This document shows positions 15,001-27,500 of a stretch of DNA of 64,000 nucleotides, piece by piece. This DNA comes from Zootoca vivipara (lineage: Eukaryota). Where the stretch lies: NCBI RefSeq assembly GCF_963506605.1, contig NC_083281.1, positions 48,112,001 to 48,176,000 on the forward strand. The letters run 5' to 3'. How positions within the stretch are numbered: position 1 is the first letter of the stretch; every line of letters begins with the position of its first letter. Position numbers: made by a program.

Positions 15001-18000
15001 CTTTAGGGTACACTTTGCAGCCCCAAAATTACTGAAAGTGGAGCTGGGAGCCTTTCCCTCCCATGTCAGGTGCTTGAAGAGGGCCATAGGGAAGGCTTCC
15101 CCTCCCTCCCTTCACTCTGTGTCTTCTCTTTGCAGCCCCCACCTCCATGCCGAGACCCCTGTGAGGCGGAGGCTGTTGTGGACATGGCTGCCAGCGCCCG
15201 GGCATTCTCGGAAGGGAAGATTGCTGGCCTCTATGACTTGGAGCGCACTTTGGGCAAGGGCCACTTTGCAGTGGTGAAGCTGGCCCGGCATGTCTTCACG
15301 GGGGAGCGGGTGGCCGTCAAGGTGATTGACAAGAGCAAGCTGGATAGCGGAGCAGCTGCTCACCTCCTGCAAGAGGTCCGCTGCATGAAGCTGGTGCAGC
15401 ACCCCAACGTGGTCCGCCTGTATGAGGTCATCGACACCCACGCCAAGCTCTACCTCATCCTGGAGCTGGGTGATGGTGGGGATATGTTCGACCACATCAT
15501 GCAGCACGAGGGAGGCCTGGGGGAGGAGAAGGCCAAGCACTACTTCGCCCAGATTGTCCACGCCATATCCTACTGCCACCGTCTCCACGTGGTCCACCGG
15601 GACCTCAAGCCCGAGAACGTGGTCTTTTTCCAAGAGCAGGGCGTGGTGAAGCTCACGGACTTTGGCTTCAGCAACTGCTTCCAGCCAGGCACGATGCTAA
15701 CCACCAGCTGCGGCTCCTTGGCCTACTCTGCCCCGGAGATCCTGCTGGGGGACGAGTACGATGCTCCTGCTGTCGGTAAGAGCTGGGAGGGGGGTGAGGG
15801 CTCTGAAGGCCTTTCGAAAGGGGAAGAGTTGGCCAGAGGCGGAGAGGGACATCCTGAGATCTACTGCACCTTATTTATTATTTTATTTGAAACTGGATAA
15901 CCTGCTCTTCCAAAAAATATAGCAAGTCGGCCTACGGCATGTAAAATACACAAAACAGTCTATAAACATGTATAAAACATACAGTAATTAAAAGCACTGG
16001 TGAATGCTGGTTGGTTATTCTGAAGGCTTGCCCCAGCAATGCAGTTACCAGCATCACACTCCAACCAACTGAGCTATCCAGCCTTCCCTGGCTTGCCAGC
16101 CTGCCTTCTGGTATGTTTTGGGCTAAAGCTTCCATCATCCCTGGTCATTGGCCATGCTGGCTGGGGTTGATGGGAGTTGTAGTCCAAAACACTTGGATGG
16201 CCATCTACCTGTAATACTAGAGGCTGGAGCTATGCCACAGCAGAGGGGGGGCCTTCATGTTCTCCTTGTGGATTTGACAGAGAAAGCAAGATGCCATGCT
16301 CATGAAATGGCCCTTTGGTGTGATCCAGCAGGGCTCATATTTCGGCCTTGGATTATGATGAGCCAGGGGTCCCCAGACTTTCCCGGCTTTGGGCCAAAAG
16401 GCAGGGGAGTGCGCGCCCGTGCGCATGCACGCACACACTTACTGGCGCGGTGGCGCGCTTCCAGGTCAGAAAAATCGCCGAAAATCGTTTGTGCACATGC
16501 GTATGGGCCTCCCCCCGACCCGGAAGTGCCTCCCCCCGACCCGGGAGTGCACCGGAAATGACCTCTTCTGGGTCGGGAGAGGCCCATACGCATGCGCACA
16601 AACGATTTTCGGCGCTTTTTTCCGATCTGGAAGTGCGCCGCCGCGCTGCGCGCCGTAAGAACAGGCGGCGGGGGTCGTCGCGGGCCGGATTGGGAGGCCA
16701 ATTGGGCCGCATCTGGCCCGTGGGCCATAGTTTGGGGACCCTGTGATGAGCCTTTGACATATTAGGGTGGAGTTTAATCCAATGTCAGTAATTGTGTTTG
16801 TTGTAGGACATAAATATATTCTCTAAATGTGGAATTGCTCCACAGTGGAACAACAACGCAGCAACATTTGTAGTATATCTGCAAGTTGTAATAGGAGAAC
16901 TTGTGTTGCCCTCCCCAGATTTTGAAAAGGGCAGTCAGCTTCCTCTTCAAAATATGGGCAACAGATAAAGGTTAGGAGGACAGAAGTTTCTGCCATGTTG
17001 TCACCATTTTGGTGGTTAATTCAATCTCTGTAAATACATTTAGAGGAGAGGGTATGGATTATTTCAAAACAAACAGAACCACCTTCCCCATTTTTGAAAA
17101 AGGATTTTCACCCTGGTGCATGGTGCAATGCCATCCAGAATGAATCTATGAATACGGAATAATGATCAGTCTTGCAAAAATTCAGGTCATTTCCTGATTC
17201 TCAAATATCTCCAATGTTAATGATCAAACAACCCCCAGAGCCAAAGCAAGCAAAATGATGACAGTCTACAAGGCCCAGGATGGTTGGGTGTTGTGGCCTT
17301 TTCCCTTAATGGGTGGGGGCAGGCATTGGGGGGGGCTGCTGAAGGAAGTAATCACCCACTCACCCTGTTCTTTTCTGAGCTCTCCAACTTGGCTTGAGCC
17401 TCATGTTGGCAACAGGTACCTTGACTCGGCTTCCTCAATATCTGGCCATTCTTGGTGGCTGCTTCTGTAGGATTGCAAGAGAGGAGGCGAGTTAGGGCCC
17501 AGCCAGGAATAAATGTCTAGTGTGAGCTGTGTGCCTGGCCACACCCCCTCCCCACCTCCAAAGGCTGCCTGAGCTAGAGAAGAGGCCTGGGCAGGGCAGG
17601 ATGTGGTGAGTGAGAGGGAGGTTTGTGTGTGTGTGTGTATGTCTGTTTGCTTGCCTGCTTAGAACTTTTGGTTGTGGCTGCTAGCAGGAAAGAGCAGAGC
17701 TTGTTGACAGGTGCAGAGCCTGCCTCCGGGCTGTGGCTTCTTCTCCCGGCTGGCATCCCCTCGGCAGCACCCTCCTGTGACCTGAAGCATGGGCTGCATG
17801 CCTCACACCCTGTTGCTCAGCTGACCCTTGACCTGCTGGTCTGCTGATGGCCTTGCCCCATTAGCCGCTGCCCTTTTCATGCCATGCTGCTCCTTGGCAT
17901 ACAGGGCACTCTGGTAGCCTGCAGCAGAACAGTGTGTGTGTGTTTGTGTGTGTGTGTGTGTTTGTGTTTGTAGGGAGCCCTGTGAGTCACCTGTGGCATT

Positions 18001-24500: not shown

Positions 24501-27500
24501 GACAGCAAAGAGAGTGAACAAAGAACAACAGTCCCACTTCAGGAACACAGTAACACAAACATCCTGTCTTCCTCACTTCCCACTGTGTGGAGTCAAAACA
24601 TACACAGTCATGTGATAGACAACAATCCCATGAATGCAAACACAGGGAATGAATCTCCAACATTTGCTTCTGGGTTGGGTCAGCTTTGGCTAGCCTGAGG
24701 CCTTTCAGATTATTTGGACTACAGTTCCCATCAGACACAGCCAGTGCTTGTCACTTCCAGCACCGCTGTGCTGGCTGGAGCTGATGGGAGACCTCGGAGG
24801 GCCTCAGGCTGAGATAGGCTGGTCCTCTTTGACCAAAAGCATCTCATTGGTTGAGACAAGCCTGTTGGCAGTGAGTGCCCTCTGAGCATTGGGGGGTTTC
24901 TGCCAGGAGAGGCTTTTGACATCTTGCCTCTTTCGTCCTTCCTGGAGTTGAGGCTGCACCCCCTTCCCCATCTCCTTTGCCGTTGTATCACCACTACATG
25001 CCCCTTGCAGGGTCCTGCATACCTCCAAGGTTCCTCTTGACTTCTGTCCCTTGCGTCCCCTTCTGCACAGAGCCCTGGAGGCCAACCGCTACAACCACGT
25101 GACGGCCACCTACTTCCTGCTGGCTGAGAGGATCCTGCGGGAGAAGCAGGAGAAGCAGAGTCCTGGGGCCAGCCTGGCCTACAACCTGGCACAGCACGTC
25201 CAGAGCAGGCAAGTCTTGAGCTCCTTGGGGCAGGGGTTTGCTTTGACCATCATTGCAGCTTTCTGAGCATCTTCCCTTTCCCCCTTTTCTTTCAGGAGCT
25301 CCTTTAGTGCCATGGGGGACCCCGGCCAACTGCTGCCCACCACAGGCAAAAGCCCTCAGCCGCTGCCCACAACCAAGAGCGCCCTCGAGGCCTTTGCAGA
25401 GCATTCTGGGAAGTCCCTTCTGTCCTTCTCTGCGCTGGGGGAGGACGAGTTGACTTCCAGCTTCCACGGGTGCGGGCAGCCCATCAGAGCCCTGATCCGG
25501 CCCTCGCTTATCGAGACCCCCATTGCCAAGAGCACCCCCGCCCTGCAGCAGATTTCGGAGGAGGAAGAGGAGGAGGAGGAAGAGGAAGAGGGAAAGCCTG
25601 GCCTGTTCCGCAGAAGGACATCTTCCCTGAACCAGGAGCAGATGAGCGACTTCCAGAGTGCCAAGGCTTCCTTGCTCTTCTGCCGGAGTCTTGCGTCCCA
25701 CAACAAAACAGGGAAGGCTCTCGGCCCAGGATTCCCCAAGGCCTGTGGCAGCCTGGAGCCTCAAGGGCCTGAGGGTGGCCTCTCCCTGGCAGCACCACAG
25801 AGGCCTCAATGCCCGCAAGGCGAACAGGAGGAAGGCACGGGCGCCCAGGTGGGCGGGAGCCTCTGCCTGCCACGGGAGGTGGGCCCAGAAATGCCAGCAG
25901 AAGGAGGGCCAAGAGGCAGTTCTTGGATGGGTGGCGAGGAGGGGAGGAAGGGCAGTGCCATCTTGGAGGCAGTGAGCAGAAGGGAGCAGCCCCCAGGGAA
26001 GGAGGAAGAGGCCAACAACAACACCCCCCCAGGGAAAGGAGGCGCCCGGGAGGGGGAGGAAGAAAGACTCTTGCAGAAAGAGCACGGGCCACGCAATGAC
26101 GACGAGACTCTGGCTCGGGGCAGCTGTGGCCAGAGAGCAGCTGGGATGAGCCCAGCTTCAGACCCGGAAGGCCAATTCCGAAAGAGCCCTGAGATGGGAC
26201 CAGCCCAAAGGCCGAAGCAGGACGGCCACCGGAACGGCAGTGGCAGTGAGGGCCTGGCAGATGTGATCAAGCTGGACCCTGCCAAGGGCAAGAACGCCAA
26301 CCTGAAGGACCGGATTCTGCAGTTCCCGCTCTGTGAGAAGGCCCTCGCATTCCGGATGCGGCCCGCCTCCAAGGAGAGCCTCCTCTCTCTGGGACAGTTC
26401 AACTGTTGCCATGTCATCTGAGCTGTACGTCTGCATCTGCAAGAGAGGGATGTGGGCTGAGGAGGGGGGTGGCGGCGTTGGTGGAAAGGGCAAGGCCCCC
26501 AGCCAGAGGGCCTCAGGTCTCTCCATTCCCATCATCCTCTGCTCCCAGTGAATGGCTGCCACCATCCTGCCCACCCACCTGCCTGCCTGCCTGCCTGAGA
26601 TTTCCATTTTGACTCTCGCTCTGTATATCTGCTTGAATCGGGTGAACCAAATGGCTGCTCCTCTCCCTCTCCCCCCCTTGTGCCAGCTGATGCTGTCCAA
26701 AGGCCACAGCCCCCACCCCACCCCCTTAGTTCACTGCATGCTGAACCTAAATCTCCACCCAAGACCAGGGTGTGGGTGTTCGTGTGCCCAGAGCTTCTCA
26801 ATAGCAAATCGGCAGTTCCGATTCTGCTGGGAGCTCTGGGGCAGCTCAGCTGGAGAGAGGCCAGTGGGTCTAGGGAGGCCCGTTTCCTTCTATGTCCCCC
26901 TGCTAGAGGCCAAGGGTGCCTGTCGCAGAGGCAAAACGGATGTCGCTGGTCCTAAAGCTGACAGAGGTGTTGTGGGCGGAGATTCCTTCAACCTCCTTTA
27001 CAGTGGCCAAAGAGCAATCTTTCTCTCCCACCACCCCAGCAAGGCTCCCGACGTGAGTCTTGCCATGTGGGGCCCTGCAGGTTTACTTATCCTAAACAGG
27101 TCAGCTTCAACGGCCACCTTTCTTGCCCCTAAGGCCAACTCAGATGGAAGCCACAGTGCTCCCGGCCACCTTCGCTCTGCTTCCAAGCCCCAGCCACCAA
27201 CTGCTGCTTGGCTGTGCCTGCTGAGGCATCCCAGATTGTGACTGTCTGAGCTGAGCTCCCAGATGCTGCTTCCCCTTTCCTGCCAGGGAGGGACCAAAAA
27301 GCCAACTCTGGCCTGCATTTGCTAGTGGCTGCCTTTGCTTTAAGCTGACGTGGCAAGCTTTGTAGTTTGCAAAGGGGCAGCAGACCCAGGCCTGGACTCA
27401 AGCTCCTCTTCAGATGCCCTGGGAAGGCCCCTGGCTGCCTCTTCTCCTCCCTGGGCTAGGAGTCCAACAGTGTTGGCTGGCCGAGGCCTTCTCTTCCTAC

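What the first reader, a model, noticed from the sequence alone, without database searches (positions are those of the whole stretch)
15184..26421. Intact second SNRK-family kinase in a 16q22-syntenic block, possibly lost in placental mammals
Seen: a full 736-aa open frame with intact catalytic motifs and the LKB1-type activation-loop threonine (LTTSCGS). Recalled knowledge: human has one SNRK, on 3p22, while AGRP, LCAT, MATCAP1 and CIAO2B are on 16q22. The kinase and UBA regions and the exon layout resemble SNRK, but the tail is mostly unrelated apart from [12 protein letters not shown] and [14 protein letters not shown]...CCHVI. Inference: an ancient, little-studied duplicate, which would be an additional LKB1-activated AMPK-related kinase in reptiles.
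Basis: partly seen in the sequence, partly recalled or inferred. Interest (0 to 1): 0.72.

Follow-up and report, generated by a model that had tools for sequence, protein, structure and literature searches.

The report
Lizard copy of second SNRK kinase
This is an intact lizard gene for a second SNRK-type protein kinase, already annotated and called snrkb in fish, which most vertebrate groups keep and mammals appear to lack.

Summary
Five coding exons on the + strand (15184-26421) sum to 2211 nt, which is 736 codons plus a stop. Each exon translation is an exact piece of a public 736-aa record, [quoted passage not shown].

All catalytic residues and the activation-loop threonine (T174, in LTTSCGS) are present. 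Exons 1-4 match human SNRK (PDB 5yks) far better than any other kinase.

Three trees split SNRK proteins into two fully supported groups. One is canonical SNRK, which includes the bat, chicken and three squamates. The other is the "SNRK-like/snrkb" group, which runs from sharks to birds and holds this gene. Forcing this gene into the canonical group is rejected (p-AU 0.00026 and 0.0008). Two other squamates carry both types.

No mammal and no frog appears among the named snrkb-type hits. AGRP, LCAT, MATCAP1 and CIAO2B flank the gene.

It is an ordinary ancient duplicate and has been little studied. LKB1 activation is an inference from sequence. Zootoca's own canonical SNRK and mammalian genomes could not be checked.

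The parts
12000..13499 (.). CpG-rich segment 1.7-3.2 kb upstream of the start codon. It may be the promoter and a non-coding first exon of the kinase gene (inferred, not shown).
   Evidence: GC 0.58-0.70 and CpG observed/expected 0.63-0.86 in 500-nt windows, against 0.23-0.31 on either side. GC is 0.629 for 12001-14000. A good acceptor (TCTTCTCTTTGCAG) lies about 50 nt before the ATG.
15184..15775 (+). Coding exon 1 (592 nt; residues 1-197 plus the first base of codon 198). It encodes the N-lobe, catalytic loop and activation loop of the kinase domain.
   Evidence: Pkinase E 4.8e-53, 180.7 bits. Best PDB match is human SNRK 5yks_A, 361.5 bits, against MARK1 at 196.8 bits. Donor GTAAGA. Exact match to P0001 residues 1-197.
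15697..15717 (+). Activation-loop segment LTTSCGS. T174 (15703-15705) aligns with the human SNRK threonine that LKB1 phosphorylates.
   Evidence: Translation checked. T174 is invariant in 43 of 43 b rows, 21 of 21 a rows and hagfish. Human Thr173 as the LKB1 site comes from passages of PMC13163123 and PMC4200829.
22970..23111 (+). Coding exon 2 (142 nt; residues 199-244 as whole codons), kinase C-lobe, DVWSLG onward.
   Evidence: Best PDB match 5yks_A, 78 bits, chain 219-263. Pkinase E 9e-07. Acceptor CAG, donor GTACGA.
23786..23998 (+). Coding exon 3 (213 nt; residues 246-315): end of the kinase domain, hinge and first half of the UBA domain (UBA part 23928-23998).
   Evidence: Best PDB match 5yks_A, 91.3 bits, chain 266-334. 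Donor GTGAGT. The UBA limits are taken from human residues 292-334 in PMC13163123.
25071..25208 (+). Coding exon 4 (138 nt; residues 317-361): second half of the UBA domain (to 25128) and the start of the tail. It is followed by a GC-AG intron.
   Evidence: The only PDB match is 5yks_A, 46.6 bits, chain 337-367. The weak Pfam UBA_MELK (0.003) and UBA_SIK3 (0.021) hits are below their cut-offs. Donor GCAAGT. P0001 reads across the same junction.
25296..26421 (+). Coding exon 5 (1126 nt; residues 363-736 plus stop TGA): a long tail rich in G, E, S and P, with no Pfam domain.
   Evidence: No Pfam family. There are 65 homologues, all SNRK-like/snrkb type by name or length. Mean identity to the other b rows is 0.29 over residues 346-690. 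Composition.
25528..25590 (+). Conserved tail motif [12 protein letters not shown], running into a stretch of 11 glutamates (residues 440-460).
   Evidence: Coordinates and the E run. The motif [KR][KSN]xx[ALVGP]L[QN][QKR]IxEE is present in 40 of 43 b rows, 21 of 21 a rows and hagfish.
26299..26418 (+). Conserved C-terminal block: [14 protein letters not shown] (26299-26340) through the terminal CCHVI (26404-26418).
   Evidence: This is the only part of exon 5 that aligns with canonical SNRK (44 aa, 45% identity, E 2e-9). LQ[FLI]PLCEK is in 39 of 43 b rows and 19 of 21 a rows. The terminal CC[HQ]V[ILV] is in 65 of 65 rows.
2104..2325 (-). Neighbour: last exon of AGRP (cysteine-knot domain).
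   Evidence: Cysteine pattern scan. Pfam Agouti E 4.5e-14.
37501..40470 (+). Neighbour: LCAT exons, in three open frames.
   Evidence: Pfam LCAT E 2.3e-09, 4.8e-29 and 8.5e-42 for 37501-37893, 38865-39146 and 39817-40470.
52387..57384 (+). Neighbour: MATCAP1 (KIAA0895-like) exons.
   Evidence: 56239-56670 matches PDB 7z5g_A 'KIAA0895-like', E 8.5e-58. The other pieces were recognised by eye only, and Pfam found nothing for them.
61765..62049 (-). Neighbour: a CIAO2B-type exon (MIP18 / FeS_assembly_P domain).
   Evidence: Pfam FeS_assembly_P E 4.7e-05, 24 bits against a cut-off of 23.5. Naming it CIAO2B rather than CIAO2A rests on recall of the sequence.

Best explanation
The locus is the common lizard's (Zootoca vivipara) copy of the vertebrate gene annotated as 'SNRK-like' in reptiles, birds and salamanders and as 'snrkb' in fish. 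It is the old sister gene of SNRK. The duplication happened before cartilaginous and bony vertebrates separated. The copy is kept from sharks to birds and was not found in mammals or frogs.

It encodes a 736-residue serine/threonine kinase built like SNRK. A catalytic domain carries every catalytic residue. A hinge and UBA domain follow directly. Then comes a long, fast-evolving, probably disordered tail that keeps three short family-wide motifs: KSxPxLxQIxEE plus an acidic run, LQFPLCEK, and a terminal CCHVI.

The mechanism is inferred by homology. The kinase is switched on when LKB1-STRAD-MO25 phosphorylates T174 in the activation loop, as shown for human SNRK Thr173. The UBA domain packs against the kinase domain, and the tail motifs direct partners or location.

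Shown here: gene structure, intactness, family and orthogroup placement, and neighbours. Inferred: activity, LKB1 dependence, expression and the role of the tail.
For: Gene model: five exons with canonical splice sites, 2211 nt. It is identical, exon by exon, to public record P0001 (736 aa).

Kinase: Pkinase E 4.8e-53. Eighteen checked positions, including the G-loop, K46, E64, HRD, N145, DFG, T174, APE and R253, are invariant in 43 of 43 b rows, 21 of 21 a rows and hagfish.

SNRK family: exons 1, 2, 3 and 4 each have 5yks_A (human SNRK) as best PDB match, at 361.5, 78, 91.3 and 46.6 bits. The matches are collinear along chain 27-367, and the next family scores 196.8 bits for exon 1.

Orthogroup: the exon 5 tail finds 65 proteins, from squamates (49-65% identity at 94% or more coverage in 15 rows) to sharks and teleost 'SNF related kinase b'.

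Trees:
- Full length: a|b split with SH-aLRT 100 (65 rows, 756 columns).
- Kinase plus UBA only: 100/100, and the AU test against placement with the a type gives p 0.00026.
- The window's exon 1 alone: 100/92, and AU p 0.0008.

Constraint: the kinase plus UBA region is 92-94% identical to other lizard b rows and 79% to the rattlesnake, against 53-67% for the tail.

LKB1 site: human Thr173. The segment from L172 to the APE motif is identical to human SNRK (alignment).
Against: No experiment or transcript data were available, so expression, activity and LKB1 dependence are not shown.

Three residues just before the T-loop threonine differ from canonical SNRK (NCFQPGTML against NKFQPGKKL). This could alter upstream-kinase recognition.

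The b type evolves several times faster than the a type. For the same species pair, full-length identity is 79% against 96%. That is compatible with relaxed constraint on parts of the protein.

The Pfam UBA hits are below their cut-offs.

Absence from mammals rests on truncated hit lists: the best 120 of 1251, and only 8000 candidates scored. No genome search was made. Thirteen of those 120 rows and 3 of the 65 rows are unnamed and were not placed.

The trees were rooted on hagfish by choice. The root was not inferred.
Confidence: 0.85

Rival explanations
1. It is the only SNRK of this genome: the true orthologue of human SNRK, moved next to LCAT and evolving fast in its tail.
For: The kinase plus UBA region is 79% identical to canonical SNRK of every tetrapod compared. 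The C-terminal block and the KSxPxL motif are shared.
Against: The a|b split has support of 100 in three trees. The AU test rejects holding this gene with the a type (p 0.00026 and 0.0008). The groups were named after the first tree was seen. Hemicordylus and Paroedura each have both a canonical SNRK (P0179, P0241) and a b-type protein (P0008, P0004). The tail is 62-67% identical to lizard b tails and 19% to a tails.
Confidence: 0.02
2. It is a recent, lineage-specific duplicate or retrocopy of SNRK in lizards or reptiles.
For: The closest hits are squamates.
Against: The gene has four coding introns, so it is not a retrocopy. Same-group proteins occur in turtles, alligator, birds, caecilians, salamanders, lungfish, coelacanth, sharks, rays and ray-finned fish, and the branching within the group follows the species tree.
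Confidence: 0.01
3. The gene is a decaying or catalytically dead relic (a pseudogene or pseudokinase) on its way to the loss seen in mammals.
For: The b type has longer branches and much lower tail conservation than the a type. Some bird and snake records are flagged 'LOW QUALITY PROTEIN'.
Against: The 736-codon frame is uninterrupted with good splice sites. All 18 checked catalytic and structural positions are intact in 43 of 43 b rows. The kinase domain is 88-94% identical to the non-snake sauropsid and caecilian b rows (79% to the rattlesnake), while the tail drifts. That is the pattern of purifying selection on the enzyme.
Confidence: 0.04
4. It is an active kinase, but it is not controlled by LKB1. 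It would be activated by another upstream kinase or by autophosphorylation, because of the b-specific changes in front of the T-loop threonine.
For: In the 12 b rows printed, the residues in front of the site are G[TK]ML, where the six a rows printed have GKKL. The residue at 173 varies (T, A or M) in b rows.
Against: Leu at -2 and the threonine are both kept, and the whole segment from L172 to APE equals human SNRK. From recall, LKB1 tolerates quite different residues at -3 and -4 among its 13 known substrates.
Confidence: 0.1

Closest known systems
Vertebrate 'SNF related kinase b' (snrkb) / 'SNF-related serine/threonine-protein kinase-like' records, including the Zootoca vivipara record P0001
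   Same: P0001 is identical exon by exon. The gene belongs to the same tree group as shark, sturgeon, gar, coelacanth and teleost snrkb and bird, turtle and salamander SNRK-like proteins. They share a homologous tail and the same C-terminal NCCHV[IL].
   Different: Nothing of kind, because this is that gene. The tails diverge strongly with distance: 67% identity to other lizards, 40-46% to archosaurs and turtles, 25-31% to fish. In the searched library, 'snrkb' occurs in 3 papers. One is about Chlamydomonas, and the other two only list it as a differentially expressed gene (listing; passage of PMC9239171).
Canonical SNRK (human gene at 3p22.1; structure PDB 5yks)
   Same: The architecture is the same: kinase domain, hinge, UBA, long tail. 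Identity is 79% over kinase plus UBA. The T-loop is identical from L172 to APE. The KSxPxLxQIxEE and LQxPLCEK motifs and the terminal CC[HQ]V[ILV] are shared.
   Different: It is a separate group in all trees. The tail is otherwise unalignable, with only 44 of 374 residues aligning. The rate is much faster: 79% against 96% full-length identity for the same lizard pair. The chromosomal neighbourhood differs, being AGRP-LCAT rather than the 3p22-type region.
Other AMPK-related kinases with a UBA domain (MARK1-4, SIK1-3, BRSK, MELK, AMPK alpha)
   Same: They share the CAMK-group kinase fold, a T-loop threonine in an LxT context, and a UBA-like module after the kinase domain. Exon 1 scores 187-197 bits to MARK and SIK3 chains and about 154 bits to AMPK alpha chains.
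   Different: They score about half the SNRK value. Exon 4 matches no PDB chain except SNRK. They share no tail motifs.

Membership tests
Eukaryotic protein kinase superfamily (Pfam Pkinase) | Significant match to the kinase-domain profile | tested here: met
   Exon 1 scores 180.7 bits against a cut-off of 31.7, E 4.8e-53. Exons 2 and 3 continue the profile (positions 180-214 and 239-263), but each is below the cut-off on its own.
Eukaryotic protein kinase superfamily (Pfam Pkinase) | Catalytic residues: G-loop glycines, VAIK lysine, alpha-C glutamate, HRD aspartate, catalytic-loop asparagine, DFG aspartate, APE | tested here: met
   All are present in the window. All are invariant in 43 of 43 b rows and 21 of 21 a rows.
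AMPK-related kinases (LKB1 substrates) | Activation-loop threonine in the conserved Leu-x-Thr ... CGS context | tested here: met
   MLTT174SCGS lies at 15697-15717. It aligns with the human SNRK T-loop in 5yks. Thr173 as the LKB1 site comes from passages of PMC13163123 and PMC4200829.
AMPK-related kinases (LKB1 substrates) | UBA domain directly after the kinase domain | tested here: inconclusive
   Exons 3 and 4 align with 5yks chain 266-334 and 337-367, which cover the SNRK UBA. The Pfam UBA_MELK and UBA_SIK3 hits are below their cut-offs (E 0.003 and 0.021). No fold was predicted.
AMPK-related kinases (LKB1 substrates) | Phosphorylation and activation by LKB1-STRAD-MO25 | not testable with these tools
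   Needs a biochemical assay.
SNRK family | Closer to SNRK than to any other AMPK-related kinase | tested here: met
   361.5 bits to SNRK against 196.8 bits to the next family (MARK1) for exon 1. SNRK is also the best PDB match for exons 2, 3 and 4.
SNRK family | Family-wide tail motifs and C-terminus (defined here from the alignment, not from the literature) | tested here: met
   All three motifs are present in the window. In the alignment, KSxPxLxQIxEE is in 62 of 65 rows, LQ[FLI]PLCEK in 58 of 65 and the terminal CC[HQ]V[ILV] in 65 of 65.
snrkb / SNRK-like orthogroup | Falls in the group that holds fish snrkb, apart from canonical SNRK | tested here: met
   Group support is 100, 100/100 and 100/92. 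The window's exon 1 sits among the squamate b rows (100/97).
snrkb / SNRK-like orthogroup | Homologous tail | tested here: met
   Exon 5 finds 65 proteins, with E from 2.4e-240 to 2.6e-9. Records named 'SNF related kinase b' from a shark, a sturgeon and teleosts are among them.
snrkb / SNRK-like orthogroup | Conserved gene neighbourhood with snrkb of other vertebrates | not tested
   No vertebrate genome collection was available. The only hint is a hoatzin gene model that fuses this kinase with SETD6 (P0105).
Canonical SNRK (orthologue of human SNRK) | Groups with canonical SNRK of other vertebrates | tested here: not met
   The AU test rejects it (p 0.00026, 0.0008). The tail is 19-20% identical to a-type tails.

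The most novel reading that the evidence does not exclude
Every SNRK-family protein examined ends in CC[HQ]V[ILV]: 43 b rows, 21 a rows and hagfish, 65 of 65. This is a CaaX-shaped box with a second cysteine in front. Nine b rows end in CCHVL, and from recall a terminal L is the classical geranylgeranyl signal and the pattern resembles the RhoB C-terminus. The boldest reading not excluded is that SNRK kinases, this b copy included, are prenylated at C733 and perhaps palmitoylated at C732. The b copy would then be a lipid-anchored kinase acting downstream of LKB1 that mammals and frogs lost independently. Two library searches found no paper linking animal SNRK to prenylation (listings only).
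Probability: 0.2. Interest if true: 0.55.

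Novelty: already known. Interest (0 to 1): 0.3.

Why it matters
Work on LKB1 and the AMPK-related kinases starts from the mammalian set of 13 substrates (PMC4200829, passage seen). Lizards, birds, turtles, crocodilians, salamanders, caecilians and fish carry one more candidate member. Zebrafish, chicken or lizard experiments on SNRK may therefore be buffered or confounded by this sister gene.

As genome biology it is a routine case of an old duplicate kept in most vertebrates and missing from mammals. 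The gene is already annotated under this name in the same species, so the finding adds a tidy evolutionary placement rather than a discovery.

The invariant CaaX-like C-terminus of the whole family is the one point that could open a new experiment.

Tried and rejected
- Mixture-model trees (LG+C20) on 65 rows by 756 columns did not finish in two runs. I used LG+G4 instead.
The question stays open.
- The ESM Atlas search with the exon 5 tail gave a best score of 0.82, and all rows were below the 0.9 lead threshold. The hits were unrelated disordered vertebrate proteins, so they carry no information.
- Pfam found nothing for four MATCAP1-like frames or for a frame that looked like a reverse-transcriptase fragment. 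MATCAP1 was confirmed through the PDB instead.
- The literature search 'SNRK' + 'paralog' + 'lost in mammals' was swamped by plant SnRK papers: 1,239 hits, 15 listed, none relevant.
- 'snrka' + 'zebrafish' gave 0 papers.
- A search for the NCBI product name failed on a term-syntax error and was not repeated.
- MAFFT aligned the b-type [12 protein letters not shown] motif to the wrong acidic block of the a type. A motif scan showed the real counterpart, KSAPVLNQIFEE.
- I looked for positions fixed in all b rows and fixed differently in all a rows within residues 1-345. There are none.
- Not used: the one representative-library job, structure prediction, fold search and complex prediction. The first gives no names, so it cannot reveal mammals. 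The fold is already covered by 5yks.

Full report
**What is there.** The window holds no N. Between 15184 and 26421 the + strand carries five open pieces of a protein kinase. Placing the splice sites gives these coding exons:
- 15184-15775
- 22970-23111
- 23786-23998
- 25071-25208
- 25296-26421

Three introns are GT-AG and one is GC-AG (GCAAGT after 25208). Only the GC donor keeps the frame into exon 5.

The joined step was left out. The exon 5 search nevertheless returned a public 736-aa record, P0001, 'SNF-related serine/threonine-protein kinase [Zootoca vivipara]'. All five exon translations are exact substrings of it, at residues 1-197, 199-244, 246-315, 317-361 and 363-736. The four split codons read D, D, E and R, as in that record. 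The window is therefore from the common lizard or a near-identical genome.

**The protein.** Exon 1 is a kinase domain (Pkinase E 4.8e-53). Exons 1, 2, 3 and 4 each have human SNRK (PDB 5yks_A) as their best solved relative, at 361.5, 78, 91.3 and 46.6 bits. The matches run collinearly along chain 27-367. The next family, MARK, reaches 196.8 bits for exon 1.

Eighteen catalytic and structural positions are present in the lizard. They are invariant in 43 of 43 b-type rows, 21 of 21 canonical rows and a hagfish row. These positions include the G-loop glycines, K46, E64, H138-R139-D140, N145, D159-F160-G161, T174, the APE motif, D198 and R253.

T174 sits in MLTTSCGS. From L172 to the APE motif the segment equals human SNRK. 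In human SNRK the matching Thr173 is the site LKB1 phosphorylates to activate the kinase (passages of PMC13163123 and PMC4200829). The second of these reviews confuses SNRK with NUAK2 but cites the original SNRK paper.

The part aligned with the human UBA domain (human residues 292-334) is split between exons 3 and 4. The Pfam UBA models only give sub-threshold hits.

**The tail.** Exon 5 (374 residues) has no Pfam family and is rich in G, E, S and P. Against a canonical squamate SNRK, only the last 44 residues align (45% identity, E 2e-9).
- [KR][KSN]xx[ALVGP]L[QN][QKR]IxEE is in 40 of 43 b rows, 21 of 21 a rows and hagfish.
- LQ[FLI]PLCEK is in 39 of 43 b rows and 19 of 21 a rows.
- Every one of the 65 rows ends in CC[HQ]V[ILV].

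Mean identity of the lizard to the other b rows is 0.87 in the kinase domain, 0.83 in hinge plus UBA, 0.29 in the tail and 0.79 in the last 46 residues.

**Which gene it is.** The tail finds 65 proteins. They come from squamates, turtles, alligator, birds, caecilians, salamanders and lungfish, and from a shark, sturgeons, paddlefish, gar and teleosts, several of which carry the name 'SNF related kinase b'.

Exon 1 finds the same set first, at 366-437 bits. Only then come canonical SNRK proteins of fish and a caecilian, at 364 bits or less (best 120 of 1251). A search with the caecilian canonical SNRK shows that type to be extremely conserved, at 87-91% over the full length from amphibians to birds, squamates and mammals.

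Seven species appear with both types: Hemicordylus, Paroedura, Rhinatrema, Geotrypetes, Narcine, Heterodontus and Scleropages.

**Trees.** I built trees from 65 named rows, chosen by hand from the three hit lists. Unnamed rows and the primate-named cluster were left out. The results were:
- Full length: two groups, each with support of 100 (756 columns, LG+G4, quick search).
- Kinase plus UBA only: 100/100 (344 columns, careful search).
- The window's own exon 1 in place of the public record: 100/92 (229 columns).

The canonical group holds the bat, chicken, tinamou, alligator, three squamates, frogs, caecilians, sharks and teleosts. The other group holds the lizard gene, nested among squamates, and its branching follows the species tree.

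Holding the lizard gene with the canonical group costs 94.6 and 49.6 log-likelihood units (p-AU 0.00026 and 0.0008). The caveat is that the groups were named after the first tree had been seen.

The mixture model did not finish. The hagfish root was my choice and was not inferred. Both groups contain cartilaginous and bony vertebrates, so the duplication is at least as old as jawed vertebrates.

**Rates.** The b copy evolves much faster. For the same species pairs, full-length identity is 96% (a) against 79% (b) for two lizards, and 81% against 57% for lizard and shark. The kinase domain stays at 88-94% in most tetrapods compared (79% in the rattlesnake), while the tail falls to 40-46% in archosaurs and turtles. 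This is purifying selection on the enzyme and drift in the tail. It is not decay.

**Neighbourhood.** The following flank the gene:
- The last AGRP exon at 2104-2325, - strand (Agouti E 4.5e-14).
- LCAT exons at 37.5-40.5 kb, + strand (E down to 8.5e-42).
- MATCAP1/KIAA0895-like at 52.4-57.4 kb, + strand (7z5g, E 8.5e-58).
- A CIAO2B-type exon at 61765-62049, - strand (E 4.7e-05).

LCAT and AGRP are listed at human 16q22.1 in a table of PMC6614715. SNRK at 3p22.1 is from PMC13163123. The human positions of MATCAP1 and CIAO2B are from recall.

One other family has members in both regions: CMTM1-4 on 16q21-q22.1 and CMTM6-8 on 3p22.3 (PMC7476098, passages). This fits, but does not prove, an origin of the two SNRK genes in a large-scale duplication.

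**Loss in mammals.** Among the 62 named rows and the 107 named rows there is no mammal and no frog. Both have canonical SNRK. A mammalian b copy conserved like those of birds or salamanders (375-391 bits) should have ranked inside the listed 120.

This is evidence from truncated protein lists only. Whether the loss is placental or pan-mammalian is open. For PMC9239171 they may hold expression data on zebrafish snrkb that I could not see.

**Known or new.** The gene is annotated in this species and named in fish, so it is already known. It is indeed little studied. 'snrkb' occurs in 3 papers of the library, one of them on Chlamydomonas. The zebrafish paper only lists it among genes changed in bag3-mutant hearts. 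I found no paper on its evolution, within the limits of that library.

**Verdict.** The finding is ordinary in kind and of modest interest. The most interesting loose end is the invariant CaaX-like C-terminus of the whole family. Two searches found no published link between it and prenylation (listings only).

Noticed in passing
window 26404-26418 (CCHVI); all 65 aligned SNRK-family proteins: Every row ends in CC[HQ]V[ILV], a CaaX-shaped C-terminus with an extra cysteine in front. Nine of 43 b rows end in CCHVL. This suggests prenylation, perhaps with palmitoylation, of SNRK kinases. Two library searches gave no paper linking animal SNRK to this.
   Followed up: partly
window 25209-25295 (intron 4 of the kinase gene): This is a GC-AG intron with donor GCAAGT. 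Only this donor keeps the frame, and the public protein reads across the same junction.
   Followed up: yes
hit lists: No frog appears among the b-type hits, although caecilians and salamanders have the gene and frogs have canonical SNRK. This may be a second, independent loss in Anura.
   Followed up: no
protein P0105: A hoatzin record named SETD6 (507 aa) carries Pkinase plus SET-domain Pfam hits and is 90% identical to exon 1. It is probably a gene model that fuses two neighbours. If so, the bird copy lies next to SETD6, which from recall is on human 16q21.
   Followed up: no
window 46500-47999: A second CpG-rich segment (GC up to 0.73, CpG observed/expected up to 0.78) lies upstream of the MATCAP1-like exons. 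It is likely that gene's promoter.
   Followed up: no
window 3872-4217 and 49874-50219: An interspersed repeat occurs in opposite orientation at these two places, 93% identical over 346 nt. It was not classified.
   Followed up: partly
window 17.6-18.0 kb, 19.2-19.3 kb and 21.4-21.6 kb (intron 1); 37.9-38.1 kb (between LCAT-matching frames): Simple repeats show up as runs of T-H, C-V, N or I in the translated frames. They look like (CA)n/(TG)n microsatellites in the long first intron and an AT-rich trinucleotide run between the LCAT frames.
   Followed up: no
alignment, residues 165-174: In the 12 b rows printed, the residues in front of the activation-loop threonine are G[TK]ML, where the six a rows printed have GKKL. 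Residue 173 varies (T, A or M), while T174 never does.
   Followed up: partly
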